The notes under the pieces were generated by a model that had not been told where the DNA came from, did no database searches, and worked only from the letters and a program-made list of their open reading frames with translations. Below are positions 4,112 through 64,000 of a stretch of DNA of 64,000 bases, piece by piece. Position 1 is the first letter of the stretch. Each line of letters starts with the position of its first letter. The position numbers were made by a program, and so were the translations under genes. Source of the DNA: a virus; the IMG/VR virus record IMGVR_UViG_3300009776_000830. One strand, given 5' to 3'.

Positions 4112-4897
4112 ATGATCGATAAGTTTATACAATTCAATGAGTCAAGGAGATCTAAAAAAAGAAGATTTCATGGAATAGAAAGAAATTATAATAGATATAA
4201 TAGAAGTTTAGAGGAATCTTCACCAGAAAATGGCATGAAACTTGATGTTTCTCCACGATTTAAGGCTGTTGTAGAAAAGATGGTCGGAATTGGTGGCCTG
4301 ATAGCTAAAAATCTTTTAGAAGAAATAAATAAAAAAGAAAGACTGTTTAAAATATCTTATATAGATATATCTAGAAATCTAGATATGTTGACATATTTAC
4401 CTTTATCTGAAAAAAACTCTGGAACCGATCCTTATAAAAATCCAAAAAGAATTGGTTCTAAAATATATAAGGTCATAAGAATGCTTTTCGAAAATAGTGT
4501 CACAAAAGAAGAAATTCAAAAATTTGTATCTGTTTTTAAAAAGGTTTGTAGTTCCGATCCAGAACGACCTTCTCCAAAACCAAAAACTGAAGTTTCAGGT
4601 GTCAAAGAAGACAAAAAAACAAATAATGAGATAATATTCAAATTAATTGAAGACACTATAGAAAATAAAATTAAGTGGGAGACAGTACAGAACACAGATA
4701 ATCTAGAAAGTTATAGGACCATTGTTAATATAACAAATAATAAAAAATTAGAAATTGATGTGTTTATAATGAAAAAAAATATTGATCTCAGTAGTTTATC
4801 TATATTTTATATAATTAATAAAAATAATAATTTTATAAAAAGTATAAAATTTTCTGAAATAAAAGAATTTGAAGATTTGATTGAATTAATTAGATAA
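4112..4897 (+). CDS. Hypothetical protein, paralog of 5234..5887, shares its N-domain with 11243..12520; CTS-like start
   Basis: MIDKFIQFNES start; SPRF/SYID/DMLTYL domain; TAATATATA at 4080. Confidence 0.8.
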   Translation: MIDKFIQFNESRRSKKRRFHGIERNYNRYNRSLEESSPENGMKLDVSPRFKAVVEKMVGIGGLIAKNLLEEINKKERLFKISYIDISRNLDMLTYLPLSEKNSGTDPYKNPKRIGSKIYKVIRMLFENSVTKEEIQKFVSVFKKVCSSDPERPSPKPKTEVSGVKEDKKTNNEIIFKLIEDTIENKIKWETVQNTDNLESYRTIVNITNNKKLEIDVFIMKKNIDLSSLSIFYIINKNNNFIKSIKFSEIKEFEDLIELIR

Positions 4898-4934
4898 AAT
4901 ATTTTGATTAAAATTATTTAATATATAAATCTAT

Positions 4935-5252
4935 ATGGAAAAATTTAGCAATAAGTATATAGAGCAGTTTGATATTTTAAAAAAGGCTATCATAGGATTT
5001 GAGTTTGAATTTTATGCTGAAAGATCTTATTATAAATTATTGGAATTATTGAATCGTGAACTCGAACCAATTAATGTCTGGGGTCGTAGAAAATATCACT
5101 CTGATTTAGAACCGGATTCGAAAAATTTTAAAATTGAACCTGATTTATCTGGTGGCCCCAATATGATTGAATTGATCACAGGACCAATGCCTTACCATAA
5201 CGCCAAACTTATTCTTTTAAAAATTTTAAAGAAGTGTCCCCTAGATTTATAG
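4935..5252 (+). pseudogene. 5' stub (about 99 codons) of the amidoligase gene 8115..9515
   Basis: Near-identical N-terminal protein sequence (MEKFSNKYI..GFEFEF..KIEPDLS..ELITGPMPYHNAKLILLKILK); homology ends at 5231. Confidence 0.85.
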
Positions 5253-5887
5253 CAGCCGTTAGAAAAATGTCAGAAGTTGGTGGGTCTATCGTAAAGAAAT
5301 TATTAGATGAAATAGAAAATAAAAATAATCTATACAACATATCTTATATTGATTTGTCTAGAAATCTTGATATGCTAACATATTTGCCATTGTCGGAAAA
5401 AGATTCAAAAATAGATCCTTATAAAAATCAGAAAAGAATAGGTTCAAAAATATATAAGGTGATAAGAATGATATTTGGTAATGAAGTGACAAAAAACGAA
5501 ATACAAAAATTCGTATCTGTTTTTAAGAATGTTTGTAGTTGTGTGCCAACAACGCGACCAAAAACAAAAACCGAAAACCGAAAACAAACGGATAAAGAAA
5601 TTGTTGACACTTTAATAAAAAATACCGTAGAAAATAAGATTTCGTGGAAAAATAATCAAAAAACTGAAAATTTAGAATCTTATGTTGCTGTATATGAAAT
5701 AACCGATAACAAAGAATTAGAATTCAATTTATATATATTCCCAAAAGAAGAACATATAAGTAACATGGCTATATCTTATAGGGTTAATACCACCAAAATC
5801 CTTAAAAGAGATTTTATCAAGAATATAAATTTTAGTGGCGCTGGATTATTAAGCGAGTTCAACGATCTGAAAGAATTAGTGAAATGA
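5234..5887 (+). CDS. Diverged, N-terminally shortened copy of 4112..4897
   Basis: EVSPRF..SYIDLSRNLDMLTYLPLSEK..DPYKN.KRIGSKIYKVIRM aligns with the 4112 product from its codon ~44 onward. Confidence 0.75.
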   Translation: MSPRFIAAVRKMSEVGGSIVKKLLDEIENKNNLYNISYIDLSRNLDMLTYLPLSEKDSKIDPYKNQKRIGSKIYKVIRMIFGNEVTKNEIQKFVSVFKNVCSCVPTTRPKTKTENRKQTDKEIVDTLIKNTVENKISWKNNQKTENLESYVAVYEITDNKELEFNLYIFPKEEHISNMAISYRVNTTKILKRDFIKNINFSGAGLLSEFNDLKELVK

Positions 5888-5895
5888 AAAATGAA

Positions 5896-6048
5896 TTATT
5901 TTTTCCAAACGAATTTTAAATTTCCGGAATCATAGATTCTATATATGCCGTTTTCTAACATTATTTCGTGTTCTGTTTTATTCGGATCCGATCCTTTTTT
6001 TACCAATCTGTCTTTTCTAAAATTAAATCTATTTTTTCGTCGCCGCCC
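5896..6048 (-). pseudogene. C-terminal remnant (about 50 aa) of a Hef-like/PD-(D/E)xK homing endonuclease
   Basis: Manual translation KNRFNFRKDRLVKKGSDPNKTEHEIMLENGIYRIYDSGNLKFVWKK* closely matches the C-terminus of 46795..48480. Confidence 0.8.
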
Positions 6049-6071
6049 CTAAAAAATAAATCACAGAAACA

Positions 6072-6290
6072 ATGGAAAAAACCTTTGAAAGATTTCTGAA
6101 TATTTTTAAGGAAAAATCTTGTGACGACGATGATATCGCTGAAAAAATATATAAACACATTCAGGAAAATGATATTTTTGTGAATAAAGATATTCGTGGT
6201 TATCATTTTCATATTTTGTTAAATGAGACGGAAAATGATAGGGAAGATCCGTTTAATGAAGACTCAGCAAATTCTATTGAGATTTCGTAG
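6072..6290 (+). CDS. Small hypothetical protein with CTS-like start and EDPFNED motif (possibly truncated)
   Basis: MEKTFERFLN start; ORF track. Confidence 0.5.
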   Translation: MEKTFERFLNIFKEKSCDDDDIAEKIYKHIQENDIFVNKDIRGYHFHILLNETENDREDPFNEDSANSIEIS

Positions 6291-6328
6291 ACTCTCATTT
6301 TATTCAATTAAACTACAGGACCTCTATG

Positions 6329-6400
6329 TGCGACTGGATGGATTCGAACCACCGACGAATTGCATGTAACACAATCACTCTACCCCTGAGCTACAATCGC
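6329..6400 (-). tRNA. tRNA-Val(TAC)
   Basis: Cloverleaf folded by hand: acceptor GCGATTG/CAGTCGC, D arm GCTC/GAGT, anticodon stem ATTGT/GCAAT with loop GT-TAC-AT, T loop TTCGAAT; no encoded CCA. Confidence 0.88.
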
Positions 6401-6411
6401 TTATATATGTG

Positions 6412-6482
6412 TGTTCCCGAATGGAATCGAACCATTGCCATTTGAATGTGACTCAAATATTCTCCCTTTAAACCACAGGAAC
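6412..6482 (-). tRNA. tRNA-Val(CAC)
   Basis: Acceptor GTTCCTG/CGGGAAC, anticodon stem TTTGA/TCAAA with loop GT-CAC-AT, T arm AATGG-TTCGATT-CCATT; weak D arm; no encoded CCA. Confidence 0.85.
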
Positions 6483-6512
6483 AAAAAATGACAAAAAATG
6501 ATTAAAAAGTAT

Positions 6513-6521
6513 TAATATATA
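6513..6521 (+). promoter_or_regulatory. TAATATATA putative phage late-promoter box
   Basis: Same 9-mer recurs shortly upstream of many starts (see finding). Confidence 0.5.
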
Positions 6522-6541
6522 GAATAAAAATTATTTTTATT

Positions 6542-6916
6542 ATGAAAACATATTTAGAATTTTTAAATGAACAAGCCGCTCCAGCACCCGCTCCAGCACC
6601 CGCTCCAGCACCCGCTCCAGCACCCGCTCCAGCACCCGCTCCAGCACCCGCTCCAGCACCCGATCCAGCACCGCCCGCTCCAGCCACACAAATCCCAAAA
6701 AGAACAACTTCTTATGGTGGGAATTTAGCGAGAGCTAATGATGATAAGGTTCATGAAATAATATATAAATTAACACCTCAAACAAAAACTGATCTTCAAA
6801 ATGTTTATAAGAAAGTATTAGACGAAATCCATAAGACATTTAAAGATGATCCATCTATGACTACAAGAGATATTGCAACTGCTGTAGGAAGTATAATGTA
6901 TAATCAGCAGGGATAA
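6542..6916 (+). CDS. Putative internal head protein with T4-type capsid-targeting sequence and (Pro-Ala)n linker
   Basis: Starts MKTYLEFLNE (7/10 identical to the T4 IPII/IPIII CTS MKTYQEFIAE), followed by a PA repeat. Confidence 0.7.
   Translation: MKTYLEFLNEQAAPAPAPAPAPAPAPAPAPAPAPAPAPAPDPAPPAPATQIPKRTTSYGGNLARANDDKVHEIIYKLTPQTKTDLQNVYKKVLDEIHKTFKDDPSMTTRDIATAVGSIMYNQQG
6578..6673 (+). repeat. 12-bp tandem repeat GCTCCAGCACCC x7 plus one variant, encoding (APAP)n
   Basis: Read directly from the sequence. Confidence 0.95.
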
Positions 6917-6918
6917 TT

Positions 6919-7254
6919 TTAATTCTTCAACCTATTGAATAATTCCATTTTTTTATCAGGGAATATTTTAATAAAAATTTCACAAGGTGAAAATCTATTA
7001 TCCCCTCTCAAATTATAATCCGACTTTCTTAAATTAGATAAGTCGGATTTTTCATTTATAATTTCGTCAGATGTTATTGTACATGGACAACATCTCAAAT
7101 CCAATTTTATTACTCTTTTCGTATATCCAATAGATTTTAAATCTCTATAAATTTCCGAGTTTTCATTTAATGCGTTTCTTGTGACTTCGTTTGCGTAGTA
7201 TCTCAACCATTGCAATTCTAGGTCAATAAATTTGTTCAATTCTTCTAATTTCAT
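6919..7254 (-). CDS. Hypothetical protein
   Basis: 111-aa ORF, convergent with 6542..6916. Confidence 0.7.
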   Translation of the reverse strand: MKLEELNKFIDLELQWLRYYANEVTRNALNENSEIYRDLKSIGYTKRVIKLDLRCCPCTITSDEIINEKSDLSNLRKSDYNLRGDNRFSPCEIFIKIFPDKKMELFNRLKN

Positions 7255-7256
7255 TA

Positions 7257-7500
7257 TTATTTTATTTCTGGATATTTTTTAATCATATCATTATCTAGTA
7301 TATAATCCTTTGAATCCCCCAACCATTTTCTTAATATATTCTCTATTATATTTATATCTAAATCTGGATCAAAACAAATAATGGATTGATCTCGCAGACA
7401 AGGGCATTTTTGCCGCTAAACTTATATCAAGCAATGAAAAGATGTTTAAATATGATTTGATTTGGAAAAAAGGGGAAAGGATAAGTGGTTTCTTGAATTC
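7257..7500. other. Two juxtaposed start-less coding fragments on opposite strands
   Basis: Minus: DQSIICFDPDLDINIIENILRKWLGDSKDYILDNDMIKKYPEIK* ending at 7257; plus: WIDLADKGIFAAKLISSNEKMFKYDLIWKKGERISGF from ~7382; no in-frame starts seen. Confidence 0.35.
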
Positions 7501-8021
7501 TAAAAGGCAACCAAATTTGTTTCCTTTATTTTATCTCTAATGAGATCTATCTTTAGGGGGGATGTGACACCATATTTTTTCAAATTTGTTTCCTTTATTT
7601 TATTTTTTATTTCATTATTTTGAGTGAAGTGTTTACACCCGTATTTCTTCATGGATGTTTCTTCAACAGATTTCTTGTATTCATCGGTTTTTGTATAATG
7701 ATCCACCCCGTATTTTTTTAGAGTTGTGTTTTTCACTTTATTGTTCGCACAAATAGAAGAACACGCATAAAAACCACCGTTTTTTATGTTCTTGTAATAT
7801 TTCTGAAACATTAATTTTTTTTGTTTTCCACACACATCGCATTCAACATCAATGATGGTGTGTGAACCAGGATTAAGATCTATGGTTTTTATTTCAACGA
7901 AATCATTTAAAAATATGGAATTATATCCCCTTAATTTTAAATATTCTATGTTTTTTTTTGTTACTTTTATTTTCATTTTGTCGTTTATTATCATAAAATG
8001 TTTTATTTTTTTGTTCCACAT
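7500..8021 (-). pseudogene. N-terminal fragment of a Hef-like homing endonuclease (Zn ribbon + KYG repeats), nuclease domain missing; likely start MIINDK
   Basis: IIDVECDVCGK, ACSSIC, repeated LKKYGV units as in 43296..45053; abrupt end TNLVAF*. Confidence 0.75.
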
Positions 8022-8114
8022 CTAAGTAATGGATCAATAGGTCTAATAGTATATATAAAAATTATCCATCATTATTTTTTTATTTTCGTAAAAAAAGTTT
8101 AATATATAGACTTA

Positions 8115-9515
8115 ATGGAAAAATTTAGCAACAAATATATTGATCAATTTGACGTTCTAAAAAAAGCTGTTCTCGGGTTTGAATTCGAGTTTTATACAGA
8201 CAGATCTTATTATAAATTATTGGAGCTGTTGAACAGGGAATTGGACCCAATTAAAATTTGGGGGCGTAGAAAATATCACTCGGATTTGAAACCAGATGCC
8301 GAAAATTTTAAAATAGAACCAGACTTGAGTATGGGAAATCAGGGTGTTGAATTAATCACAGGACCAATGCCATATCATAACGCCAAACTGATATTGTTGA
8401 AGATATTAAAAATTTTACAAACTCACGCTAAAACAGACGAAAAATGTTCTCTCCATATAAATGTTTCTTTTGATAAAAAACAAACAGATAAAACAATAGA
8501 CAAGTTAAATCGATTAAAAATTATTTTAGCTGTTGATGAAAATAATATTTACAAATACTTTCCAACAAGAAGAGATAATTTTTATGCCAAAACAGTAAAA
8601 AGGCTCGTCCCATTTAAAGGGTATGATTATACTAATGACGCCATAAATATACTTGTTCAAAATTTGCAGTTACCAGACACAAAATATTATGGTATAAATG
8701 TTAAGGAAATTGGTGATGGTAGATTGGAATTTAGATATATTGGTGACACTGATTATCAATTCAAAACCAAAGAAATTATCGAATTAATGGACTATTTTAT
8801 AATGTTGGCTTGGAACAGCATAAGTGAGGAATTGAATGATGATGAAATTGATTCCTTAAGAAAATATCTTGACGAAAACATAAATAACTTTAAGAACTTT
8901 AATAAATTTGAGAATTTTATTGCCGAATTTCCAACAATTCAATTAGAAATTGACAAAAACGATGAGTTTGTTGTTGTTAAGTCACATTACGGCCAAATAT
9001 ACCCGAAGATATATGATATGATTAAAAATATTGACAATTTAAATAATTGTATTATAAACTACGATACAAATACCAAAAAACTGGAATTGGTTGACGCTGA
9101 TTTTAAAACCATTTTTGAATTAAAATACATGACTATTATAGATAGTTCACCAAACGGCGGAACATACTTAAATTGTAGATTTATAGGGTGTGATATAAAA
9201 AATAGTCATTTATATAATTGTGAAATAATTGGAACAGAGGTATTTAATTGTAAGTGTGAGGATTGTAATATTGATCAAACCAGCGAACTGAAAAAGGTCT
9301 ATTTCAACGGCGGAAATATGGATGGTGATTTTGTCTCGGGAGTATTCAGATCCGGAAAAATTGGCGAATTTGGCGAATTGAAAGATGGTGTCAAAATAAT
9401 ATCTGACACAGACAGCTATTTCAATACCAATTTAGAAGATGACAACAAAGAATCCAGCAAACCGAAAGAAACAATTAAGAAATTAAACCCCTATACGAAT
9501 ACAGCTAAGTTTTAA
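8115..9515 (+). CDS. Putative amidoligase (COOH-NH2 ligase, Amidoligase_2-like)
   Basis: GFEFEF, KIEPDLS, VELITGP, SLHINVS, KYYGIN, LEFRY motifs in the expected order. Confidence 0.75.
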   Translation: MEKFSNKYIDQFDVLKKAVLGFEFEFYTDRSYYKLLELLNRELDPIKIWGRRKYHSDLKPDAENFKIEPDLSMGNQGVELITGPMPYHNAKLILLKILKILQTHAKTDEKCSLHINVSFDKKQTDKTIDKLNRLKIILAVDENNIYKYFPTRRDNFYAKTVKRLVPFKGYDYTNDAINILVQNLQLPDTKYYGINVKEIGDGRLEFRYIGDTDYQFKTKEIIELMDYFIMLAWNSISEELNDDEIDSLRKYLDENINNFKNFNKFENFIAEFPTIQLEIDKNDEFVVVKSHYGQIYPKIYDMIKNIDNLNNCIINYDTNTKKLELVDADFKTIFELKYMTIIDSSPNGGTYLNCRFIGCDIKNSHLYNCEIIGTEVFNCKCEDCNIDQTSELKKVYFNGGNMDGDFVSGVFRSGKIGEFGELKDGVKIISDTDSYFNTNLEDDNKESSKPKETIKKLNPYTNTAKF

Positions 9516-42490: not shown

Positions 42491-43075
42491 TTACCATTTT
42501 TCTTCCATAAAAGGATCATCATCTATGTTTGATTTCCATCTTTCGGCTTGTTCTTCGCTAAAAGATTTATCTCTAACACTTTTTATACTAAGAGGTTTAT
42601 AATCATACATATGATTAGGACTCAGTGCTCCCCATTCGCTTCCGTCTTTCATCACTTCGTCTTTTATTGATTCTTCCATTCTATTCAATAGAAGTTCAAG
42701 TTTTTTTCTTTGCTCTGGATCAAAAATATTCAATAATTCTTCTTTTTCTTTATCGACTTTCTCATCTCTAATAAATTCTTCTGTGATGTCTGTATCAAAA
42801 TGCGTCCACTCAACAAAGACTGAATTTTTAACATATTTTTTTAATTGTTTTTTCTGTTCATTTGTTAAATCTGATAATATTTCAAATAGCTCTTTTTTAT
42901 AAAATTTATTAGTTTTTAATTTGTTGATATATCTTTGTAAATCTGTTATCTTTCCAGGGATGTGTCTCGCTAAAAGCATTATTCCAAAAAAAGTCAACAT
43001 ACCAAGCACAAAACCGATCAATTCCGATAAGGTTTCTTCATTTAAAAATTCATCATATTTCTTTAATTTTTCCAT
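42491..43075 (-). CDS. CTS-bearing membrane protein ending DDDPFMEEKW
   Basis: MEKLKKYDEFLNE, TM segment LIGFVLGMLTFFGIMLLA. Confidence 0.75.
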   Translation of the reverse strand: MEKLKKYDEFLNEETLSELIGFVLGMLTFFGIMLLARHIPGKITDLQRYINKLKTNKFYKKELFEILSDLTNEQKKQLKKYVKNSVFVEWTHFDTDITEEFIRDEKVDKEKEELLNIFDPEQRKKLELLLNRMEESIKDEVMKDGSEWGALSPNHMYDYKPLSIKSVRDKSFSEEQAERWKSNIDDDPFMEEKW

Positions 43076-43155
43076 AGTGATTATTGGTATTTTTCATTAT
43101 ATATAAAAAAAAATTCAAAAAAAAACTTTATTTTTATTTTTTATATATTATGTAA

Positions 43156-43281
43156 ATGAAAACTAAAACAGTAGAAGAGCAATATGTTCAGCTAGAACAT
43201 CGAGAACAAATTCTTTTAGGAGAGACCGATTTTTTTTACAAATGCTTCAGAACATTTATGACATTTTTTATTAATATATAA
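43156..43281 (+). pseudogene. Orphaned original 5' end of the topoisomerase II gene (21 homologous codons, then unrelated sequence)
   Basis: MKTKTVEEQYVQLEHREQILL|GETDFFYK..* versus MKEIKKTVEEQYVQLEHREQILL|RPDT at 45040. Confidence 0.9.
43165..43218 (+). repeat. Perfect 54-bp direct repeat, copy 1
   Basis: AAAACAGTAGAAGAGCAATATGTTCAGCTAGAACATCGAGAACAAATTCTTTTA identical to 45055..45108. Confidence 0.97.
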
Positions 43282-43295
43282 AAATAAAAAATAAT

Positions 43296-45053
43296 ATGAT
43301 AATTGATACAAAAACAAAAATAAAATTGACTAAAAAATTAATTAATAAGTATAATTATAATGGAAATCCTGGTGATGTTATAGAGATTGATATCGAAAAT
43401 CTTCCAAATAATAGTATGAAATTAATAAAAGTTAAATGTGATATATGTGAGTCCGAAAGAAGCTTGCCGTATAGAACATATATGAAGAATTATTTAAAAT
43501 ACAATTTATATACGTGTTATGGTTGTAGTAGAATAAAATATGAAAAAACTTCCATTATTAAATTTGGGGTCAATAATCCAATGCAAAATGATGAAATAAA
43601 AAATAGATTAAAAGACACAATATTGAACAAATATGGAAGAGAATTTTATTTACAAACAGATGATAAAAAAGAAAAGGGTACTCAAACCTGCCTAACCAAA
43701 TATGGTGTTGAAAATCCGATGCAGGACACAAAAATAAAAAATAAGGCAAAAAACACAAAAAGAGAAAAATATGGAGATCATTATGAAAAGATAACAGAAA
43801 AAATAATAAAAACTAAAAAAGAGAAATATGGAGAGCATTATGAAAAGATAACAGAAAAAATAAATCTTACAAATGTAAAAAAATATGGATGTGATTATCC
43901 TTTACAAAATAAAGACATTTATAATAAATCTATAGAAACGTCAATTAATAAATATGGAATGCATCCAAATAAATGTTCGTTTATAAAAGATAAACAATTG
44001 ACGACATTATCAAATACCACTTTTCAAAAAATAAAAAACAAATATCCAGATATAAATTTTATATCTAAAGAGAACTGTCAATATACAATAAAATGTGACG
44101 ATTGTGGATTAGAGTATAAGATCAGTTTTAATTTATTTTTTCTTAGAAAATCAAACAATATAACGCTTTGCACTTTATGTAATGATCCAAAATTAAAACA
44201 TAAATCGGATTTTGAGCATCAAGTTATTAATTTTTTAGAAAAGAATGAAGTTAAATGTCAACCAAATTATAGAAAAATTTTAAATGGGAAAGAAGTAGAT
44301 ATATATCTTCCAGATTATAATATGGCTATTGAATGTAATGGGATTTTCTGGCATTCTGAATTATATAAATCAAAAAATTATCATAAAAATAAAAGCGAAG
44401 AATGTAAAAAAGTGGGGGTCGAACTTCTACACATATGGGAAGATGACTGGATATATAAACAAGATATAATAAAATCAATAATATTAAATAAATTAGGAAA
44501 AATAAAAAATAAAATTTATGCAAGAAAATGTGAAATATTAGAAATAAATGACAATAATATGGTTAAAAATTTTCTAGATGAAAATCATATTCAAGGATTT
44601 GTTAAATCTTCATTTAAAATTGGATTATTTTATAATAAAGAACTAGTTAGTTTGATGACTTTGGGTTATAGAATGATAAATTCTAAAAAAGAGTTTGAGC
44701 TCATAAGATTTTGTAATAAAAAATACACGAATGTAATAGGGTCAGCTAGTAGATTATTTAAAAATTTTATAGAAAAAATAAATAAACCATTTAAAATTAT
44801 CAGCTATTCCGATTCATCCCTTTTCAATGGTAATATGTATTTAAAAATTGGATTTGAATTAATTGGAGATACATCTTTAAATTATTATTGGGTTGTTGAT
44901 GGCATCAGAAACCATAGGTTCAAATATAATAAAAAAAAGTTAGTGATGATGGGAAATGATCCAAATAAAACAGAATATGAAATCATGACGGAGAATAATT
45001 ACTATAGGATATGGTCATGTGGAATGAAAAAATGGATATATGAAAGAAATTAA
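43296..45053 (+). CDS. Hef-like free-standing homing endonuclease (Zn ribbon, KYG repeats, Vsr/PD-(D/E)xK nuclease, conserved C-domain)
   Basis: VKCDICE, KYG repeats, EVDIYLPDYNMAIECNGIFWH, IWEDDW, NHIQG, ELIRFC, YRIWSCG. Confidence 0.85.
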   Translation: MIIDTKTKIKLTKKLINKYNYNGNPGDVIEIDIENLPNNSMKLIKVKCDICESERSLPYRTYMKNYLKYNLYTCYGCSRIKYEKTSIIKFGVNNPMQNDEIKNRLKDTILNKYGREFYLQTDDKKEKGTQTCLTKYGVENPMQDTKIKNKAKNTKREKYGDHYEKITEKIIKTKKEKYGEHYEKITEKINLTNVKKYGCDYPLQNKDIYNKSIETSINKYGMHPNKCSFIKDKQLTTLSNTTFQKIKNKYPDINFISKENCQYTIKCDDCGLEYKISFNLFFLRKSNNITLCTLCNDPKLKHKSDFEHQVINFLEKNEVKCQPNYRKILNGKEVDIYLPDYNMAIECNGIFWHSELYKSKNYHKNKSEECKKVGVELLHIWEDDWIYKQDIIKSIILNKLGKIKNKIYARKCEILEINDNNMVKNFLDENHIQGFVKSSFKIGLFYNKELVSLMTLGYRMINSKKEFELIRFCNKKYTNVIGSASRLFKNFIEKINKPFKIISYSDSSLFNGNMYLKIGFELIGDTSLNYYWVVDGIRNHRFKYNKKKLVMMGNDPNKTEYEIMTENNYYRIWSCGMKKWIYERN

Positions 45054-46818
45054 AAAAACAGTAGAAGAGCAATATGTTCAGCTAGAACATCGAGAACAAA
45101 TTCTTTTAAGACCAGACACCATAATAGGAAGCACCAAAACAGATGAGAGAGATCTGTTTGTTATGGATGGGGATAAAATCAAGATGAGAACGGTGAATTA
45201 TAATCCTGGTTTCTTTAAGATTTATGATGAAATTTTAACCAACGCATCCGATCATTATATTAGGACGAAACAAGTCAAATATATTAAAATTAATATTGAG
45301 GGCGATAATATATCAATAGAAAATGATGGGCCTGGTATACCAGTTCAAATTCATAAGAAAAAAAAGGTTTATGTACCGGAGCTTGTCTTTGGGCATCTTT
45401 TGACATCAGAAAACTATGATGACACCATAGAAAGGACTTGGGGTGGAAGAAATGGAATTGGTGGAAAAGCAACAAACATTTTCTCTAAAAAATTTATTAT
45501 CGAAACATCAGATGGTAAGAAAAAATATTATCAAGAATTTTTTGATAATATGTCTGACAAAACAAAACCAGAAATAATATCTAGTAGAAAAAATTATACA
45601 AAAATAAAGTTCTATCCAGATTTTTCAAGATTTGGAATATCCGATATAGATGGAAATATTCAAAATCTTATGATGCGGCGAGCAGTTGATGTTGCGGCAT
45701 ATTGCTCTGGCATAAAGATATACTTCAATGATACCATAATACCGATAAAGACATTCAAAGATTATATGAAAATGTATGAAATCGATGAGGATAACATTTT
45801 TTATGAAAAGATAAATGATAATTGGGAGATAGGAGTTTCAGCATCAGTAGATAATAATTTCAATCAAGTTTCTATGGTCAATGGCATATCTACCTATAAT
45901 GGTGGAACACACGTTAATATCATAATAAATCAAATAACAAAGGCTGTCCAAGAAATTTTATCTAAAAAATATAAAAACTTGAATATAAAGCCAGCTGACA
46001 TAAAAAATAGATTGTTTTTGTTTGTGAATTGTAAAATTGTCAATCCAGAGTTTAACGAGCAATCAAAAGAGACATTGAATACTAAAATTATAGATCAACC
46101 AAAAGTTTCAGACGCTTTAATAAAGAAAATAACTAGCTCGAATTTCATAAAGGAATTAGTGGATTTTTTACACGTCAAAGAAAGTTTGGACACAAAAAAG
46201 GAAATAGGAAAACATAAAATAAAAATTTCTAAACTGGATGACGCTCGTAAAGCTGGAACGTATGAGAGCGATAAATGTTATTTGACATTATGTGAAGGGG
46301 ACTCAGCCGCCGCTTCAGTTATGGCTGGACTTTCTGAAGTGGATTCGAGTTATTGGGGAATTTTTCCTTTAAGGGGGAAACCAATGAATGTTAGAGATGC
46401 AGCTCTTCAAAAAATAAGAGAAAATGAAGAAATAAAAAACATCATCAATATACTTGGCCTTGAATTTGGAAAAAAATATACAGATACATCAAAATTAAGA
46501 TATGGTAAAGTAGTATTAATGGCTGATGCAGACTGTATAGATGAAAACACAATGATTCTAACTAAAAGAGGATATGTGTCTATAAAAGATCTAAATTACG
46601 AGGATTGTGTCATGACTCATGAAAACAGATGGAAAAAAATTAAAAAAATTATAAAAACTAAGAAAACAAATCTGATTAAATTAACAATAAACAACGAAGA
46701 TTATTTTTTCGGAGAAAATCATGAGATTCCAGTGTTGAGAAATGGAGAAATCGTTTTAGTAAAAGTGAAGGATATATTAATTACTGATAAATTATTAAAA
46801 AGAAAAAACGAACTTTAA
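45040..46818 (+). CDS. Type IIA DNA topoisomerase N-half (GHKL ATPase, transducer, first part of TOPRIM; 498 aa) fused to a split-intein N-fragment
   Basis: EILTNASDH, ENDGPGIP, GGRNGIGGK, LCEGDSA, PLRGKPMNV, MADAD then CIDENT. Confidence 0.95.
   Translation: MKEIKKTVEEQYVQLEHREQILLRPDTIIGSTKTDERDLFVMDGDKIKMRTVNYNPGFFKIYDEILTNASDHYIRTKQVKYIKINIEGDNISIENDGPGIPVQIHKKKKVYVPELVFGHLLTSENYDDTIERTWGGRNGIGGKATNIFSKKFIIETSDGKKKYYQEFFDNMSDKTKPEIISSRKNYTKIKFYPDFSRFGISDIDGNIQNLMMRRAVDVAAYCSGIKIYFNDTIIPIKTFKDYMKMYEIDEDNIFYEKINDNWEIGVSASVDNNFNQVSMVNGISTYNGGTHVNIIINQITKAVQEILSKKYKNLNIKPADIKNRLFLFVNCKIVNPEFNEQSKETLNTKIIDQPKVSDALIKKITSSNFIKELVDFLHVKESLDTKKEIGKHKIKISKLDDARKAGTYESDKCYLTLCEGDSAAASVMAGLSEVDSSYWGIFPLRGKPMNVRDAALQKIRENEEIKNIINILGLEFGKKYTDTSKLRYGKVVLMADADCIDENTMILTKRGYVSIKDLNYEDCVMTHENRWKKIKKIIKTKKTNLIKLTINNEDYFFGENHEIPVLRNGEIVLVKVKDILITDKLLKRKNEL
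45055..45108 (+). repeat. Perfect 54-bp direct repeat, copy 2
   Basis: Identical to 43165..43218. Confidence 0.97.
46534..46815 (+). mobile_element. Split intein N-fragment (IntN, 94 aa)
   Basis: Cys1 block A CIDENTMILT directly after DAD; block B FGENHEI; ORF ends shortly after. Confidence 0.9.
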
Positions 46819-48480
46819 ATTTCCAGAGTCATATATTCTATAAATTTTTCTCTCAAGCATTATATCGTGTTCGGTCTTGCTCGGATCAAATCCTTGTTTA
46901 ACTAGCTCATCTTTTCTAAAACCAAATCTATGCTTTCTCACACCATCGATAATATAATAATAATTAGGCTCGGTCTTTCCAACAAGCTTGAAACCAAGTT
47001 TTTTATATAACTCTCCTTGACTCCAAGACCTGTCAGCATAGCTGGTCACTTCTTTTGGCTCAAAGTTTTTAACAAAAAATTTGAACAGTCTTGAAGCTCC
47101 TCCAACAACACTGGTGTTCAGCTTGTTACAGAACCTTAGCATCTCGTAGGATCCATCGTGTGAACTTTGTCCCATAGCCCTTCTCAAGCTTCCAAAGGTC
47201 ATTAAAGAAACAAGTTCTTCTTGATAAAAAAGACCGATCTTGATCTTTGAACCGACGAACCCTTGAATGTGGTTCGTTTCAAGGAAATCTTTAACTAATT
47301 TATTATTATTAACCTCTTTCATATCACATTTTCTAGCATAGATCTTATTTGGAGTCTTGTTCAACAAATTCAGAATTCTAGATTTAACGATTTCTTGTTT
47401 ATACAACCATTCATCCTCATAAATATGAATGAGTTTAATCTCTTGTTTTTCTGCTAGTTCAGTTTTTTCAAGATGATAATTGTTTGACTTGTTCAATTCA
47501 TTATGCCACCATATTCCATTAAATTCAAAAGCTATTTTTAAATCAGGTATATAAATATCTAGCTCACCGTTTATTGTTTTCCTATCTGATGATAAAACTT
47601 TATAATATTTTTCAATAAATTCTTTTACTTGAATTTGACCACCAGATGTATAATATGTTGGATTACAAATATTACAGATTTTCAATCCGGATCTGGCTCT
47701 ATTGTAGATGACATGTTTAGGCACAATGAATGTATGATCTTTTCCACAATCACATTTACATTCACACAAATTTGTATTTGATATTGATAAAATTGTAAGA
47801 ATTTTTTCAAAATTTTTTATAAATGATTCTTTAAATTTATCTTTACATTCAATAGTGTTATTATAATAATCGCCATATCTTTCTACACTTGTTTCATATT
47901 GTTTGTTTTTAAAATCTTTAAATTGAAGAGGATGTTCCACTCCATATTTTTCGAGAAGAACATTTTTTATTTTTACTTTGACTGACTCATCTTGAAATAA
48001 ATTTTCTACTCCGTATTTCTCCAAACATGTCTTTTTATATCTATCTTTAAAAATATTTGTTTTGCTTGTATGTTCAACTCCATATTTTTCTAAACATGTC
48101 TTTTTATATTTTTTTTTAACAATATCACTTTTCTTTGGGTGCGAAACTCCATATTTTTTCAATGATGACTTTTTAAGTTTTTCTTTTGTGTCGATATTCA
48201 AAGTTGAACATCTTGTAGAACAAAAAGTTCTATATCCTAATGTTTTATTTAAAAATTTAACTATTCTACCACATTCTTTACAAGTTGGAACATTATTCAT
48301 GTTATTAACGAATAAATAAACTTTTTCTTTAAAAGATAATCGATCAAAATCGAACTTATTCGAATAATCAACAATTTGTTCATAAATTTCATGACAATTT
48401 TTCATCAAATATTCTTCTCTGGAATATTTTCCAGAATCATTTTTTGTTAAATACAATTTTTCAAAATCAATTATTGTCAT
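46795..48480 (-). CDS. Hef-like homing endonuclease inverted between the intein halves
   Basis: PTCKECG, FCSTRC, KYG repeats, ELDIYIPDLKIAFEFNGIWWH, NHIQG, EMLRFC, YRIYDSG. Confidence 0.88.
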   Translation of the reverse strand: MTIIDFEKLYLTKNDSGKYSREEYLMKNCHEIYEQIVDYSNKFDFDRLSFKEKVYLFVNNMNNVPTCKECGRIVKFLNKTLGYRTFCSTRCSTLNIDTKEKLKKSSLKKYGVSHPKKSDIVKKKYKKTCLEKYGVEHTSKTNIFKDRYKKTCLEKYGVENLFQDESVKVKIKNVLLEKYGVEHPLQFKDFKNKQYETSVERYGDYYNNTIECKDKFKESFIKNFEKILTILSISNTNLCECKCDCGKDHTFIVPKHVIYNRARSGLKICNICNPTYYTSGGQIQVKEFIEKYYKVLSSDRKTINGELDIYIPDLKIAFEFNGIWWHNELNKSNNYHLEKTELAEKQEIKLIHIYEDEWLYKQEIVKSRILNLLNKTPNKIYARKCDMKEVNNNKLVKDFLETNHIQGFVGSKIKIGLFYQEELVSLMTFGSLRRAMGQSSHDGSYEMLRFCNKLNTSVVGGASRLFKFFVKNFEPKEVTSYADRSWSQGELYKKLGFKLVGKTEPNYYYIIDGVRKHRFGFRKDELVKQGFDPSKTEHDIMLERKIYRIYDSGNLKFVFSF

Positions 48481-48632
48481 ATGATTATATCATCTATATT
48501 TTTTCCTATTTTTTTAAAATAATTAAACAATATCCACTCTATAAGCTTTGACTTGTTTTTTGTATTATCATTTAACAGCTCTAATATTTTTGGATTTATT
48601 GTAAAAGTTGTTCCAATTTTTTTTGTTATCAT
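48477..48632 (-). CDS. Ribbon-helix-helix (CopG-like) protein, 51 aa; stop overlaps the endonuclease start (ATGA)
   Basis: Manual translation MITKKIGTTFTINPKILELLNDNTKNKSKLIEWILFNYFKKIGKNIDDIII. Confidence 0.7.
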   Translation of the reverse strand: MITKKIGTTFTINPKILELLNDNTKNKSKLIEWILFNYFKKIGKNIDDIII

Positions 48633-48818: not shown

Positions 48819-48931
48819 TTTTATTTTTTTTTATTTATATATTAAATTGAAAAACCATTATTTTTCCATTATTTTGTTTTTCAAACTATAAAATAATATT
48901 AAGATATATAAAAAAAAAATGATTATTGTTT

Positions 48932-49117
48932 ATGGTAAATAGATTAAAAAATGAAGAAAAACGGAAAAATCTTCCAGTTTCTTTAAATAGAAAATTATAT
49001 GATATTCTAGAAGAAGTTTGTGCCGAAAAAGATGTTAATAAATCAAAATTAGTGGAGAAACTGATAAGAGAATATCTAAAAGAAGAAAAAGGAATAGACA
49101 CAAGCTCTATAATATAA
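48932..49117 (+). CDS. Ribbon-helix-helix (CopG-like) protein, paralog of 48477..48632
   Basis: LPVSLNRKLYDILEEVCAEKDVNKSKLVEKLIREYL. Confidence 0.8.
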   Translation: MVNRLKNEEKRKNLPVSLNRKLYDILEEVCAEKDVNKSKLVEKLIREYLKEEKGIDTSSII

Positions 49118-49135: not shown

Positions 49136-49285
49136 ATGGATTTAAATATAAAAGATTTTGAAGTTTTAAATATAGATAATATAAAGAAAATAGAAAAAGA
49201 AACCACAATGTATGATATCGAAGTGGAAGACGATAATACATTTTACATATCTAAAAATCAAAAAGATGATATATTAGTTCATAAT
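49136..49285 (+). mobile_element. Split intein C-fragment (IntC, 50 aa)
   Basis: Block F MYDIEVEDDNTFY, block G ILVHN followed by Cys+1. Confidence 0.92.
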
Positions 49286-51067
49286 TGTGATGGAGATCAT
49301 ATAAGGGGATTGATTATAAATCTTTTTGACACATTTTGGCCGGAACTTTTAAAATTAAATTTTATCTATGATTTCATAAGCCCTATAGTCAAGATCACAA
49401 ATGGAAAAACTGTAAAATATTTTTATAGATTAAGTGAATATCAAAAAGAAAAAGATAAATATAAGGGATTGGAAATCAAGTGGATAAAGGGGTTAGGCAC
49501 GATAAGTCCAGACGAAATGAAATTGTTTTTTAAAAATATTAAAAAACACCTCATTCCTTTTCATTATGACAATAAAGATACAGAAGAGCTCATTGATATG
49601 GTTTTCAACACGAAACGATCGGACGATAGAAAAGAATGGATGAAAAATTATGAGCCGAAAGATATTATAGATAAATTTTCAACAAAACAGACATTTGATA
49701 AATTTATAAACACAGAGCTTATGGAATGGAGTATGGCAGATAATAATCGTGTCATACCAAGTGCTATTGACGGATTGAAGCCTGGCCAGCGCAAAGTTAT
49801 TTATACTTTGTTTAAGAAGGGGCTCAAAGGAGAAATAAAAGTCAGTTCTTTATCAGGCTCTGTCATTCAGGATGCGGCTTATCATAATGGGAATGTTTCT
49901 ATTGAGCAAACCATAATAGGAATGGCTCAAGATTTTGTTGGCTCGAATAATTTGAATCTGATATTACCAAAGGGGCAATTTGGATCGCGTTTGAAAGGCG
50001 GAAGCGATGCGGCAGCATCTAGATATATTTTCACAAAATTTAACGATATAACTAGTTATATTTTTAGAAAAGAAGACAATGATATTTTAACATATCTAGA
50101 TGATGATGGATTTTTAATCGAACCAAAATATTACGTTCCGATTATACCAATGATATTAGTGAATGGAGCGAAGGGAATAGGTTCTGGTTATTCGACAGAG
50201 ATACCTTCATATAATCCTATGGATATAATAATCTATCTCCAAAATAAAATAAAGAAAAAGAAAAATATAGAATTAAATCCATTCTATAAAGATTTCAAAG
50301 GTGAGATAATCTTAGATATAGAAAATCGAAGATATATTACCAGGGGGGTTTTGAAAAAATTAAATGAAACAACATATGAAATAAATGAGCTTCCGATAGG
50401 AATTTGGAATTCAAATTACTATGAATTTTTGGATGAGCTGTCAGAAGATAAGAAAGATAAAAATGGAAAGATTATTCGTAAATCTATAATAAGAGATTGG
50501 AGCAAAAATGGTAATGATAAAGAAGTAAAAATAAAGATTTATTTTTATAAAGACATCGATGATGATTATTATAATGATATATTCAAAAATCTAAGATTAG
50601 AAACGTATGTTTCATTTAATAATATGCATCTTTTTGATAAAAATAAGAAGATAAAAAAATATAATAATCAGTATGAAATTATTGATGATTTTTATGAAAC
50701 GAGAATAGAATATTATGATAAAAGAAAAAATCATTTATTAGACGATTTAAATTATGATATTAGCGTTTTGAAAAACAGAATTATGTTTGTCAAAGCTGTT
50801 GTTGACGATAAGTTAGTTATAAACAAAAGAAGTCGCGAGCAAATAGAAAAAGATATAGCGTCTTTAAATCTAATGAAAATAAATGACTCATATTCATATT
50901 TATTGAATATGTCAATATCTAGTTTGACAAAGGAAAAGTTGATAGATTTAAAAGAAGAATATGACAAAAAAAAGAATGATTTAAAACTTTTGAAAGAAAA
51001 AACAATAGAAGATATGTGGTTGGAAGAACTAGAAATTTTAAAAAAGGAATTGAAAAAATATGAATGA
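49136..51067 (+). CDS. Split-intein C-fragment fused to topoisomerase II C-half (rest of TOPRIM + breakage-reunion domain, 593 aa)
   Basis: VHN|CDGDHIRGL, KWIKGLGT, IPSAIDGLKPGQRK, YHNG, AAASRYIF (catalytic Tyr), PMILVNGAKGIGSG. Confidence 0.95.
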   Translation: MDLNIKDFEVLNIDNIKKIEKETTMYDIEVEDDNTFYISKNQKDDILVHNCDGDHIRGLIINLFDTFWPELLKLNFIYDFISPIVKITNGKTVKYFYRLSEYQKEKDKYKGLEIKWIKGLGTISPDEMKLFFKNIKKHLIPFHYDNKDTEELIDMVFNTKRSDDRKEWMKNYEPKDIIDKFSTKQTFDKFINTELMEWSMADNNRVIPSAIDGLKPGQRKVIYTLFKKGLKGEIKVSSLSGSVIQDAAYHNGNVSIEQTIIGMAQDFVGSNNLNLILPKGQFGSRLKGGSDAAASRYIFTKFNDITSYIFRKEDNDILTYLDDDGFLIEPKYYVPIIPMILVNGAKGIGSGYSTEIPSYNPMDIIIYLQNKIKKKKNIELNPFYKDFKGEIILDIENRRYITRGVLKKLNETTYEINELPIGIWNSNYYEFLDELSEDKKDKNGKIIRKSIIRDWSKNGNDKEVKIKIYFYKDIDDDYYNDIFKNLRLETYVSFNNMHLFDKNKKIKKYNNQYEIIDDFYETRIEYYDKRKNHLLDDLNYDISVLKNRIMFVKAVVDDKLVINKRSREQIEKDIASLNLMKINDSYSYLLNMSISSLTKEKLIDLKEEYDKKKNDLKLLKEKTIEDMWLEELEILKKELKKYE

Positions 51068-62800: not shown

Positions 62801-64000
62801 GTACATCAGGAACATCAGGCACTTCAGCAACCAGTGGAACATCAGGTGTATCAGGTACTTCTGGTTCATCTGGAACCAGTGGAACATCAGGTTCATCAGG
62901 CACTTCAGGTTCATCTGGGGCAAGTGGAACATCAGGCACTTCAGCAACCAGTGGAACATCAGGCATATCAGGCACTTCAGGTTCATCCGGGACCAGTGGT
63001 TATTCAGGAACATCGGGTACTTCTGGAACTTCTGGTACTTCAGGTATTTCAGGAACCAGTGGTTCTTCAGGAACCAGTGGATATTCAGGAACCTCAGGTA
63101 CTTCTGGGACTTCAGGAACTAGTGGAATAAGTGGGACTTCTGGAACTTCAGGAACTAGTGGATATTCAGGAACTTCAGGCACTTCAGGAACATCAGCAAC
63201 CAGTGGAACATCAGGTTATTCTGGCACATCTGGTTCATCTGGTACTAGTGGTTATTCAGGAACTTCAGGTACGTCAGGTTTGACAGGAACATCAGGCACA
63301 TCTGGTTCATCTGGGACAAGTGGTTCTTCTGGGGCATCTGGAACTTCTGGTACTTCAGCAACTAGCGGAACATCAGGTACTTCAGGCACATCTGGAAAAC
63401 AGGGAACATCTGGTTCATCGGGTTCTTCTGGAACCAGTGGTTATTCAGGAACATCAGGTACTTCTGGAACTTCAGCAACTAGCGGAACATCAGGCACTTC
63501 AGCAACTAGCGGAACATCAGGAACTTCAGCAACTAGCGGAACATCAGGCACTTCAGCAACTAGCGGTACATCTGGTTCATCTGGTTATTCTGGAACTAGC
63601 GGATTTAGTGGCACATCTGGAACTAGCGGATTTAGTGGTACATCTGGAACATCTGCAACTAGTGGAACATCTGCAACTAGTGGAACATCTGGCGCTTCTG
63701 GTACTAGTGGAACTTCAGGGACTTCCGCAACTAGTGGAGCATCTGGAACATCTGGATCATCTGGAACAAGTGGTTCTTCTGGGACATCTGGAACTTCTGG
63801 TACTTCAGCAACTTCTGGAACATCTGGAGCTTCTGGTACTAGTGGAACTTCAGGGACTTCCGCAACTAGTGGAACATCTGGGTCATCTGGATCATCTGGT
63901 ACTTCAGGAACATCTGGTACTTCAGGAACTTCTGGTACTTCAGGAACTTCTGGTACTTCAGGAACTTCTGGTGTCGGCGGAACATCAGGCACGTCTGGAT
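59884..64000 (+). CDS. Giant Gly-Thr-Ser collagen-like tail-fibre protein (3' truncated, >1370 aa; absent from the ORF track)
   Basis: ATG 59884 [16 protein letters not shown]..; I saw no in-frame stop to the window end; G-X-Y tracts flank a ~200-aa globular insert (60361-60957). Confidence 0.9.
60958..64000 (+). repeat. 9-nt-period Gly-X-Y coding repeat (mostly GGN ACN TCN)
   Basis: Gly in register at all spot-checked positions, with a register shift at ~62389 (GVGPT). Confidence 0.95.

What the first reader, a model, noticed from the sequence alone, without database searches (positions are those of the whole stretch)
43156..45108. Endonuclease insertion that rebuilds the 5' end of its target gene (perfect 54-bp duplication)
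Seen: the first 21 codons of topo II appear twice, 1890 bp apart, with codons 4-21 identical at DNA level (43165-43218 = 45055-45108). The upstream copy runs into unrelated sequence and stops. The downstream copy has a new start (MKEIK) that overlaps the endonuclease's last codons, so topo translation may be coupled to the endonuclease. There is no room for a ribozyme and no intein motifs. Inference: an intron-less, intein-less way to invade an essential gene by supplying a replacement N-terminus, comparable to gene-end duplication by mitochondrial HEGs but at the 5' end. Perfect identity suggests a recent event. T4 topo genes 39/60 were also disrupted by a homing endonuclease (mobA), so this locus may be a hotspot.
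Basis: partly seen in the sequence, partly recalled or inferred. Interest (0 to 1): 0.8.

Follow-up and report, generated by a model that had tools for sequence, protein, structure and literature searches.

The report
Nuclease gene arrival scar at topoisomerase start
A selfish nuclease gene that habitually sits just in front of the topoisomerase II gene of huge phages has here left behind a dead 21-codon copy of that gene's start, most likely a scar of sloppy break repair rather than a designed way of invading the gene.

Summary
43165-43218 and 45055-45108 are a perfect 54-bp direct repeat. A 41-codon stub precedes a 585-aa nuclease gene, whose stop overlaps the start of an intact topoisomerase II N-part by 14 nt. 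Independent assemblies from 2016 to 2025 reproduce the stub junction.

The genome is a huge phage, not a giant virus. The nuclease has an EDxHD/Vsr-like catalytic domain (I-Bth0305I fold) fused to a Mom-like GNAT domain.

Eight other ortholog lineages (52-61% identity) all sit directly 5' of topo II, and none has a stub. They are scattered over topo II clades that have sisters lacking this lineage. The element's home is therefore the gene's 5' boundary, and the replacement N-terminus is not part of its design.

With a 54-bp repeat, any target shorter than 56 bp in the putative empty allele survives in the filled allele. The proposed cut "across ILL|RPDT" therefore gives no self-immunity.

Best reading (about 0.55): a scar of one-sided, illegitimate double-strand-break repair when the cassette arrived from a donor with no left-flank homology. 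An older case with the same topology lies at 4.1-9.5 kb. This scan has noted similar stub layouts on other DNA.

The parts
43076..43155 (+). Native upstream region of the original (recipient) topo II start. It holds a minus-strand TAATATATA box at 43142-43150 that probably serves the divergent gene 42491..43075.
43156..43281 (+). Stub ORF of 41 codons: 21 native topo II codons, then 20 codons read from the junction filler and the cassette's 5' UTR, ending 14 nt before the nuclease start.
   Evidence: It is called as a 41-aa gene in independent contigs L119 and L122.
43165..43218 (+). Repeat copy 1 (54 bp, codons 4-21 of the stub)
43219..43237 (+). Left junction: 11 nt of filler (GGAG, then AGACC, then GA, which may echo the AGACCAGA that follows copy 2) and a run of eight T.
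   Evidence: Read directly from the sequence. The scar reading is inference.
43238..43295 (+). The cassette's own 5' UTR: a motif ACAAATGCTTCAGAACAT (43238-43255) conserved upstream of orthologs, a TAATATATA promoter-like box (43272-43280) and an A-rich leader.
43296..45053 (+). Free-standing nuclease gene HEG-A, 585 aa. Its modules are a Cys4 zinc ribbon with helical KYG repeats (DUF7487), an EDxHD/Vsr-like nuclease domain (about residues 300-400) and a Mom-like GNAT domain (410-585).
45040..46818 (+). Topo II N-part (ATPase and Toprim up to DAD) followed by a 94-aa N-intein. Its start codon lies 11 nt before the HEG-A stop codon.
45055..45108 (+). Repeat copy 2, which continues into the native RPDT... 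codons. One 2025 contig carries a G>T SNP at 45069.
46795..48480 (-). Paralogous nuclease gene HEG-B (561 aa, 42% identical to HEG-A) between the split-intein halves (the 'fractured gene' layout).
49136..51067 (+). C-intein (about 50 aa, ending VHN|C) followed by the topo II C-part (TOPRIM_C and the DNA_topoisoIV domain).
4112..9515 (.). Older case with the same topology. In order: gene A1 (4112..4897); a stub of gene B (4935..5252); a partial copy A2 (5234..5887); a decayed nuclease copy on the minus strand (5896..6006 and 7500..8021) with two tRNA-Val genes; then full gene B (8115..9515).

Best explanation
HEG-A belongs to a lineage of free-standing EDxHD/Vsr-like homing endonuclease genes, fused to a Mom-like GNAT domain. 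The home of this lineage is the 5' boundary of the type IIA topoisomerase gene of huge phages. The normal layout is cassette (conserved UTR motif, TATATA box, nuclease gene) abutting or overlapping the start of a complete topo II gene.

In this phage the cassette arrived together with the donor's topo II 5' end. The recipient's topo II had been broken at or just downstream of codon 21-24, inside the conserved ILLRPDTYIG-coding stretch. The right side of the break was repaired by homology within topo II.

The recipient's promoter region and first 21 codons therefore survive as a dead stub, while the working gene is the donor-type copy behind the nuclease gene. Topo II N-part expression now probably runs through the cassette: a polycistronic transcript from the stub's signals and/or the box at 43272, with the topo start coupled to the nuclease stop.

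Shown: the anatomy, the family and fold, the conserved home site, the absence of stubs elsewhere, and persistence of the layout. Inferred: the break position, one-sided repair, and the expression route.
For: - **Family and fold.** PHROG homing-endonuclease family at E 1.5e-118. The family profile hits the I-Bth0305I catalytic domain 3r3p at E 1e-5. The AF2 model (pLDDT 87.6) matches 3r3p at TM 0.71-0.79 with 27-29% identity. E333, D335, N348, H353 and D383 are invariant in 41 homologs.
- **Home site.** Orthologs P0002-P0009 all lie directly 5' of topo II on the same strand, with spacing from +54 to -14 nt. L130 has the same 14-nt overlap as the window. None shows a duplicated topo 5' end.
- **Distribution.** On the topo II tree, lineages with the element fall in at least five clades, each with a sister that lacks this lineage.
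- **Cassette edge.** The conserved UTR motif starts 19 nt after repeat copy 1, so the stub abuts the cassette's own left edge.
- **No left homology.** Homologs of the window's left neighbours are absent beside topo II in every relative.
- **Native-looking stub.** The stub's start MKTKTVEE resembles starts of alleles without the element. The working copy's start is shaped by the overlap, as in L130.
- **Precedent.** One-sided homing with illegitimate, microhomology-type junctions was shown in T4 (Parker 1999, as summarised in PMC2988022).
- **Second case.** The same topology occurs around a decayed copy of the same nuclease family at 4.1-9.5 kb, with both duplicated parts 79% identical at nucleotide level.
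- **Logic.** A 54-bp repeat leaves every target shorter than 56 bp intact, so the duplication cannot be the element's immunity device.
Against: - Zero differences in 54 bp is surprising if donor and recipient were different enough to have unrelated left neighbours. It requires near-identical topo 5' ends or later gene conversion between the copies.
- No donor, and no empty allele closer than 66% protein identity, was found.
- Under random illegitimate joining, a left junction only 19 nt from the conserved UTR motif is a coincidence.
- The layout has been stable for about nine years in several plants. That fits a neutral scar but also a selected arrangement.
- No cleavage data exist, so the break position is inferred only from where the stub ends.
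Confidence: 0.55

Rival explanations
1. A self-contained '5'-end-replacing' homing cassette, which is the first reader's idea and the 5' counterpart of fungal mitochondrial mORFs. The mobile unit is [UTR, nuclease gene, copy of topo codons 1-23]. It homes into codon 21/22 using homology arms that both lie inside the conserved gene, which lets it move between phages with different gene order.
For: The layout keeps an essential gene intact and places 54 bp of perfect homology on the left and the whole gene on the right. The same layout was noted by this scan for HNH, NYN and GIY-YIG cassettes on other DNA (not checked by me). It has persisted from 2016 to 2025. Once formed, the arrangement could indeed be copied into an A-R-C allele by two-sided homology.
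Against: Eight of eight other ortholog lineages sit at the boundary without a stub, so the duplicate is not an inherited part of the element. The duplicate is identical rather than recoded, so every target shorter than 56 bp in the empty allele persists in the filled one and insertion gives no immunity. Other copies of the family in relatives have no flanking repeats.
Confidence: 0.2
2. The ORF is chiefly a fused modification-restriction enzyme (Mom-type adenine modification plus a REase-fold nuclease), as Iyer et al. predicted for jumbo phages, and not a homing element. On this reading its position before topo II and the duplication are ordinary recombination accidents.
For: The C-terminal 410-585 is a GNAT fold, with phage Mu Mom (8bv8) the best Foldseek hit at E 1e-6 and VIA Z about 13. 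Pfam's Mom model hits HEG-B. PMC7824862 describes jumbo-phage Mom domains fused to REase-fold nucleases and reads them as protect-and-attack pairs. The family is multicopy in relatives, with five copies in G001.
Against: Nine of nine members of this ortholog group occupy one precise site, with presence/absence across clades. Paralogs sit between split-intein halves. The nuclease domain is the I-Bth0305I type, a proven homing enzyme. These are hallmarks of homing. The two readings can also be combined, with modification serving as self-immunity.
Confidence: 0.12
3. Assembly artefact: the repeat falsely joins a topo II allele lacking the element to a separate molecule that carries the nuclease gene.
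For: Short-k contigs break at both copies. Four independent assemblies end 15-17 nt into copy 2. No public contig other than the window spans copy 2.
Against: The junction left flank-repeat-nuclease gene is crossed with no mismatch in at least six independent assemblies. The end of the nuclease gene runs into the repeat (L123 to 45099), and the repeat runs into topo II (X1 record 3, X2 record 7). Depths are equal across the three segments in two runs. No skip joint 43218>45109 was reported.
Confidence: 0.03

Closest known systems
Free-standing homing endonucleases of T4-type phages ('intronless homing': SegF, SegG, MobE; MobA at topoisomerase genes 39/60), as reviewed in PMC2988022
   Same: The nuclease gene is intergenic, next to the gene it is thought to cut. 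Its cleavage site is probably displaced from the insertion site. It overlaps neighbouring ORFs and rides on their transcripts. Topoisomerase II is a target.
   Different: The nuclease family differs (EDxHD/Vsr-like plus GNAT, not GIY-YIG or HNH). The T4 cases leave no duplicated stub of the target gene. Cleavage is untested here.
EDxHD / Vsr-like homing endonucleases: I-Bth0305I (PMC3239194), Hef, and the free-standing genes in 'fractured genes' (Dassa 2009, PMC2677866)
   Same: It shares the catalytic fold and the composite E-D-x-H-D residues, is phage-borne, and occurs free-standing and between split-intein halves. The overlap of the nuclease 3' end with the start of the downstream gene part matches the 6-69 bp reported.
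   Different: The DNA-binding part is a zinc ribbon with KYG repeats (DUF7487), not NUMOD/HTH. It has an extra C-terminal Mom-like GNAT domain. It sits at a gene's 5' boundary and not inside an intron or intein.
[quoted passage not shown]
   Same: Homology on one side only, junctions at little or no homology, and proposed as a route into ectopic contexts. This is the mechanism I infer for the left junction.
   Different: That was an engineered intron system in the laboratory. Here it would be a natural, fixed product, and the paper itself was not available to me for its junction details.
Mobile endonuclease ORFs of fungal mitochondria that carry a duplicate gene end (Allomyces atp6-ORF360, Glomus mORFs); from my own knowledge and as named in earlier notes of this scan
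   Same: A nuclease gene enters a coding region, and a duplicated gene end restores the full-length gene while the displaced end remains as a relic.
   Different: Those duplicate the 3' end, the duplicate is diverged and travels with the element. Here it is the 5' end, the duplicate is identical, and it is absent from eight orthologous insertions.
Jumbo-phage Mom-REase fusions (Iyer et al. 2021, PMC7824862)
   Same: The domain pair is the same: a REase-fold nuclease fused to a Mom-family GNAT domain, multicopy in very large phages.
   Different: That paper reads them as restriction-modification-like weapons. The site fidelity seen here points to homing.

Membership tests
EDxHD (Vsr-like) homing endonucleases | Vsr-like catalytic fold as in I-Bth0305I | tested here: met
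   The profile of 41 homologs hits 3r3p at E 1e-5. The AF2 model matches 3r3p chains at TM 0.71-0.79, rmsd 3.4-3.6, 27-29% identity.
EDxHD (Vsr-like) homing endonucleases | Composite catalytic residues E, D, x, H, D conserved | tested here: met
   E333, D335, N348, H353 and D383 are invariant in alignment A1. The HMM alignment places them against the I-Bth0305I motif stretch. The residue roles are taken from PMC3239194.
EDxHD (Vsr-like) homing endonucleases | N-terminal NUMOD/HTH DNA-binding modules | tested here: not met
   Pfam finds DUF7487 repeats and a Cys4 ribbon instead. This is a different but analogous modular DNA-binding region, so the protein is a divergent branch (Hef-like, phrog_3339) and not a close I-Bth0305I relative.
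EDxHD (Vsr-like) homing endonucleases | Fixed insertion site with presence/absence among related genomes | tested here: met
   Nine of nine members of the ortholog group lie directly 5' of topo II. They are scattered over at least five clades, each with a sister that lacks this lineage.
EDxHD (Vsr-like) homing endonucleases | Site-specific cleavage of the allele that lacks the gene | not testable with these tools
   This needs the purified protein and DNA substrates.
Gene-end-duplicating endonuclease cassettes (mitochondrial mORF type) | A duplicate of the displaced gene end restores a full-length gene and the old end remains as a relic | tested here: met
   (at the 5' end, not the 3' end)
Gene-end-duplicating endonuclease cassettes (mitochondrial mORF type) | The duplicate travels with the nuclease gene in other hosts | tested here: not met
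   No stub or duplication in L125/126, L127, L130, L131-133, L134, L135, L136 or L137.
Gene-end-duplicating endonuclease cassettes (mitochondrial mORF type) | The insertion or a recoded duplicate destroys the target site (self-immunity) | tested here: not met
   The 54 bp are identical and the ILL|RPDT junction is intact at 45108/45109. Every window shorter than 56 bp of A-R-C persists (logic).
Fractured genes (split intein plus free-standing nuclease gene, Dassa 2009) | N- and C-intein halves on separate ORFs with a nuclease gene between them | tested here: met
   This holds for HEG-B at 46795..48480 between 45040..46818 and 49136..51067. It does not apply to HEG-A, which has no intein beside it.
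Mom-REase fusion (Iyer 2021) | Mom-family GNAT domain fused to a REase-fold nuclease | tested here: met
Mom-REase fusion (Iyer 2021) | Adenine modification activity that protects the phage's own DNA | not testable with these tools
   No residue-level alignment to Mom could be obtained. The invariant H431, R471, D506 and Y515 have a spacing like Mom's H58, R111, D149 and Y159. That is only my inference.

The most novel reading that the evidence does not exclude
The stub-bearing layout is a working, self-contained homing unit whose two homology arms both lie inside the conserved topoisomerase gene. This would let it jump between phages with unrelated gene order. Self-immunity would come not from disrupting the target but from the nuclease's own Mom-like domain chemically marking the target adenines. 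That would make it a homing endonuclease with built-in modification, a one-protein 'homing restriction-modification' element.
Probability: 0.1. Interest if true: 0.75.

Novelty: new variant of a known kind. Interest (0 to 1): 0.5.

Why it matters
- **A new site-specific lineage.** It defines a lineage of free-standing EDxHD-type nuclease genes dedicated to one precise site, the 5' boundary of topoisomerase II, across at least nine huge-phage lineages. This gives a clean natural system of occupied and unoccupied alleles for studying intron-less homing outside T4.
- **A candidate cut site.** If the stub is a repair scar, it is a natural fossil of one-sided illegitimate repair. It marks where the recipient was broken, in the conserved RPDTYIG-coding stretch, and so offers a testable guess at the enzyme's cut site.
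- **A caution for similar layouts.** 'Stub plus rebuilt start' layouts, which this scan has met repeatedly, need not be designed invasion devices. Checking orthologous insertions can tell design from accident.
- **The self-immunity question.** The fusion of a proven homing-type nuclease fold to a Mom-like DNA-modifying fold raises the question of how such elements avoid cutting their own genome.

Tried and rejected
- **Giant-virus origin.** Suggested by GVMAG-labelled relatives. Rejected: the window has a gp5-like spike with muramidase, the nuclease has PHROG hits, and the best topo II matches are in 0.6-0.7 Mb uncultured phages.
- **Hidden ribozyme.** No Rfam match.
- **Regulatory hairpin.** None stands out in front of the nuclease gene or at the nuclease/topo overlap (z -1.64 and -0.16). 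No terminator-like site lies between stub, nuclease gene and topo start.
- **Tyr-to-Ile in RPDTIIGS as an immunity mutation.** All 23 relatives matched by my pattern have Tyr. But the nearest relative, L022, which lacks the element, has Gln there, so the loss of Tyr is clade-specific. No site separates alleles with and without the element.
- **Flanking direct repeats as a family trait.** None around five copies in G001, one in G002 or one in L027.
- **Empty allele or donor.** Nothing is closer than 66% protein identity. No skip joint appears in laid contigs.
- **Look-ups by exact protein.** The exact 592-aa topo N-part is not on record. Contigs found through HEG-B stop inside topo II before reaching copy 2.
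- **Sequence searches of solved structures.** phmmer of the whole protein found nothing. phmmer of the C-terminal domain found no Mom match.
- **Parker 1999.** The paper itself is not held.
Full report
**Observation.** The repeat is exactly as described. 43165-43218 and 45055-45108 are identical over 54 nt, 1890 nt apart. Shuffled versions of the window give longest exact repeats of only 16-19 nt, and every longer or equal exact repeat in the window lies in a tandem or low-complexity array. Copy 1 sits in a 41-codon ORF (43156..43281): 21 codons of a typical topo II start, then 20 unrelated codons. Copy 2 sits in the 592-codon topo II N-part (45040..46818), whose ATG lies 11 nt before the stop of the 585-codon ORF 43296..45053. 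No Rfam family fits the locus.

**Kind of genome.** The window is about 28% G+C. It encodes a gp5-like baseplate spike with a muramidase domain, a GluRS-type tRNA synthetase and a TonB-dependent receptor. The best annotated matches of its topo II are uncultured phages of 0.6-0.7 Mb (62% identity to LR756501/LR756503). It is therefore a huge phage of bacteria, sampled from anaerobic digesters and wastewater plants. Bacterial rules of translation apply.

**The locus as a whole.** Topo II here is invaded twice. The N-part ends in a 94-aa N-intein right after the Toprim DAD motif. A paralogous nuclease gene (HEG-B, 42% identical) lies on the opposite strand. The C-part starts with a C-intein ending VHN|CDGDHI. 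This is the 'fractured gene' layout of Dassa et al. 2009. Relatives carry intact topo II, the same split without a nuclease gene, or a split at another site. The finding I was given concerns the other nuclease gene, HEG-A, at the 5' end.

**The protein.** HEG-A matches the prokaryotic-virus family phrog_3339 'homing endonuclease' at E 1.5e-118. It has more than 3,400 homologs at E<=1e-20, some hitting Pfam's Vsr model, and is annotated 'homing endonuclease EDxHD' or 'F-LimIII' in cultured jumbo phages. A profile of 41 homologs hits the I-Bth0305I catalytic domain (3r3p) at E 1e-5. A confident AF2 model (pLDDT 87.6) superposes on 3r3p at TM 0.71-0.79. E333, D335, N348, H353 and D383 are invariant, matching the composite EDxHD signature described in PMC3239194. 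The N-terminal third is a Cys4 ribbon plus helical KYG repeats (DUF7487). Residues 410-585 are a GNAT fold whose best Foldseek match is phage Mu Mom. Iyer et al. 2021 noted such Mom-REase fusions in jumbo phages and read them as modification-plus-restriction pairs.

**Where this lineage lives.** Eight full-length ortholog lineages (52-61% identity) were traced to contigs. Every one lies directly 5' of topo II on the same strand. Spacings are +6, +3, -14, +12, +54, +18, +38 and -4 nt. L130 has the same 14-nt overlap as the window. Most share a UTR motif (ACAAATGC.TC.GA.CAT) followed by a TATATA box ahead of the nuclease start. On a topo II tree, the lineages that carry the element fall in at least five clades, each with a sister that lacks it (the labels for the window and L130 were mis-set by the overlap and are in fact positive). 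Other nuclease types occupy the same boundary in L005 (a DUF723/Vsr-like gene overlapping the topo start) and L006 (an HNH gene). None of the eight ortholog loci has a duplicated topo 5' end, and other family copies in relatives have no flanking repeats.

**Why the proposed mechanism does not hold.**
- The rebuilt start is not a feature of the element. A complete topo II start behind the nuclease gene is the normal layout, and what is unusual here is the extra stub in front.
- Because the repeat is 54 bp and identical, any stretch shorter than 56 bp of the hypothetical empty allele (left flank-repeat-RPDT...) is still present in the filled allele, either at copy 1 or at copy 2.
- The ILL|RPDT junction itself is intact at 45108/45109. 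An enzyme with a normal-sized site there would cut its own genome, so the insertion gives no immunity. I-Bth0305I is specific for 14 bp and footprints about 60 bp.

**Best explanation.** The stub abuts the cassette's own left edge: 11 nt of filler and a T-run separate copy 1 from the conserved UTR motif at 43238. The stub's start looks like alleles that lack the element, while the working copy's start is shaped by the overlap, as in L130. The window's left-hand neighbours have no homologs beside topo II in any relative. I infer the following sequence:
1. The recipient's topo II was broken at or downstream of codon 21-24.
2. The right end was repaired on a donor that carried the cassette in front of its topo II.

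The review PMC2988022 reports such one-sided events for T4. The filler reads GGAG-AGACC-GA against AGACCAGA after copy 2. This may be an end-joining scar, but a 5-nt match is weak evidence.

**Second case.** An older structure with the same topology lies at 4.1-9.5 kb. A 105-codon stub of gene B and a partial copy of gene A are each 79% identical at nucleotide level to their full copies. They flank a decayed copy of the same nuclease family, next to full gene B.

**Expression.** TAATATATA occurs 22 times against 4.4 expected, mostly just upstream of starts. One box precedes HEG-A, and none lies within 70 nt of the topo start at 45040. No terminator-like site intervenes. Overlaps of 4-17 nt are ordinary operon junctions in this phage. 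The topo N-part is therefore probably translated from a transcript that runs through HEG-A, coupled to its stop. The stub ORF ends 14 nt before the HEG-A start and could feed ribosomes to it. All of this is inference.

**Population and time.** Exactly the same stub junction is found in contigs from 2016, 2022 and 2025 and in JGI and ENA assemblies. The layout is fixed in this phage, so 'recent' cannot be concluded. Gene conversion between the copies could also keep them identical. One 2025 contig carries G>T at 45069 in copy 2.

**Unexplained.** Four assemblies end at 45069-45071, inside copy 2. A haplotype boundary near the SNP is possible but untested.

**Comparison and novelty.** The nuclease family, free-standing homing next to the target gene, overlap with the downstream start, and topo II as a target are all known. 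A natural stub at the 5' end of the target is not described in the papers I could search. This scan has, however, noted the same layout for other nuclease families on other DNA. I rate it a new variant of a known kind. The ortholog comparison argues that here it is an accident of repair and not a device.

Noticed in passing
window 4112-9515: Second, older 'stub plus full gene' structure. A 105-codon stub of gene 8115..9515 and a partial copy of gene 4112..4897 (both about 79% nucleotide identity to their full copies) flank a decayed minus-strand copy of the same nuclease family.
   Followed up: partly
window 6328-6482 (minus strand): Two tRNA-Val genes (anticodons TAC and CAC) sit inside the interrupted, decayed nuclease gene region, next to a (PA)n-repeat ORF (6542..6916).
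   Followed up: no
window 43296-45053, residues 410-585; also HEG-B: The whole nuclease family carries a conserved C-terminal GNAT domain most like phage Mu Mom. Whether it modifies DNA, and so protects the element's own target, is open.
   Followed up: partly
window, 22 sites (for example 4080, 4919, 8100, 23552, 43272, 48649-, 51838, 59849): TAATATATA is five-fold over-represented (22 against 4.4 +/- 2.2) and lies 7-30 nt upstream of many start codons. It is a candidate phage promoter box, reminiscent of T4 late TATAAATA.
   Followed up: partly
window 45069-45071: Four independent assemblies (L119-L122) end within 3 nt of each other inside repeat copy 2, and a 2025 contig (L123) has G>T at 45069. 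This may be a haplotype or recombination boundary.
   Followed up: no
L005 4926-5999; L006 4958-5770 (minus strand): Different nuclease types (a DUF723/Vsr-like gene overlapping the topo start by 8 nt, and an HNH gene sharing the same N-terminal Zn/KYG module) occupy the same topo II 5' boundary in relatives.
   Followed up: partly
L006/L021/L033 7278-9126: Topo II is split at a different position (around residue 422) by another split intein, with a Vsr-like nuclease ORF (7870..9000) between the halves.
   Followed up: no
window 48477-48632 (minus strand) and 48926-49117 (plus strand): Two divergent small ribbon-helix-helix genes lie between the intein halves. One overlaps the HEG-B start (ATGA), so it may regulate the nuclease.
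   Followed up: no
window 45109-45135; L022 near 6070: The otherwise invariant Tyr of the RPDTYIG motif is Ile in this phage and Gln in its nearest relative.
   Followed up: yes
window 59884-64000: The jump in G+C to 0.44-0.48 coincides with a long collagen-repeat ORF (Pfam Collagen, E 4e-136).
   Followed up: no
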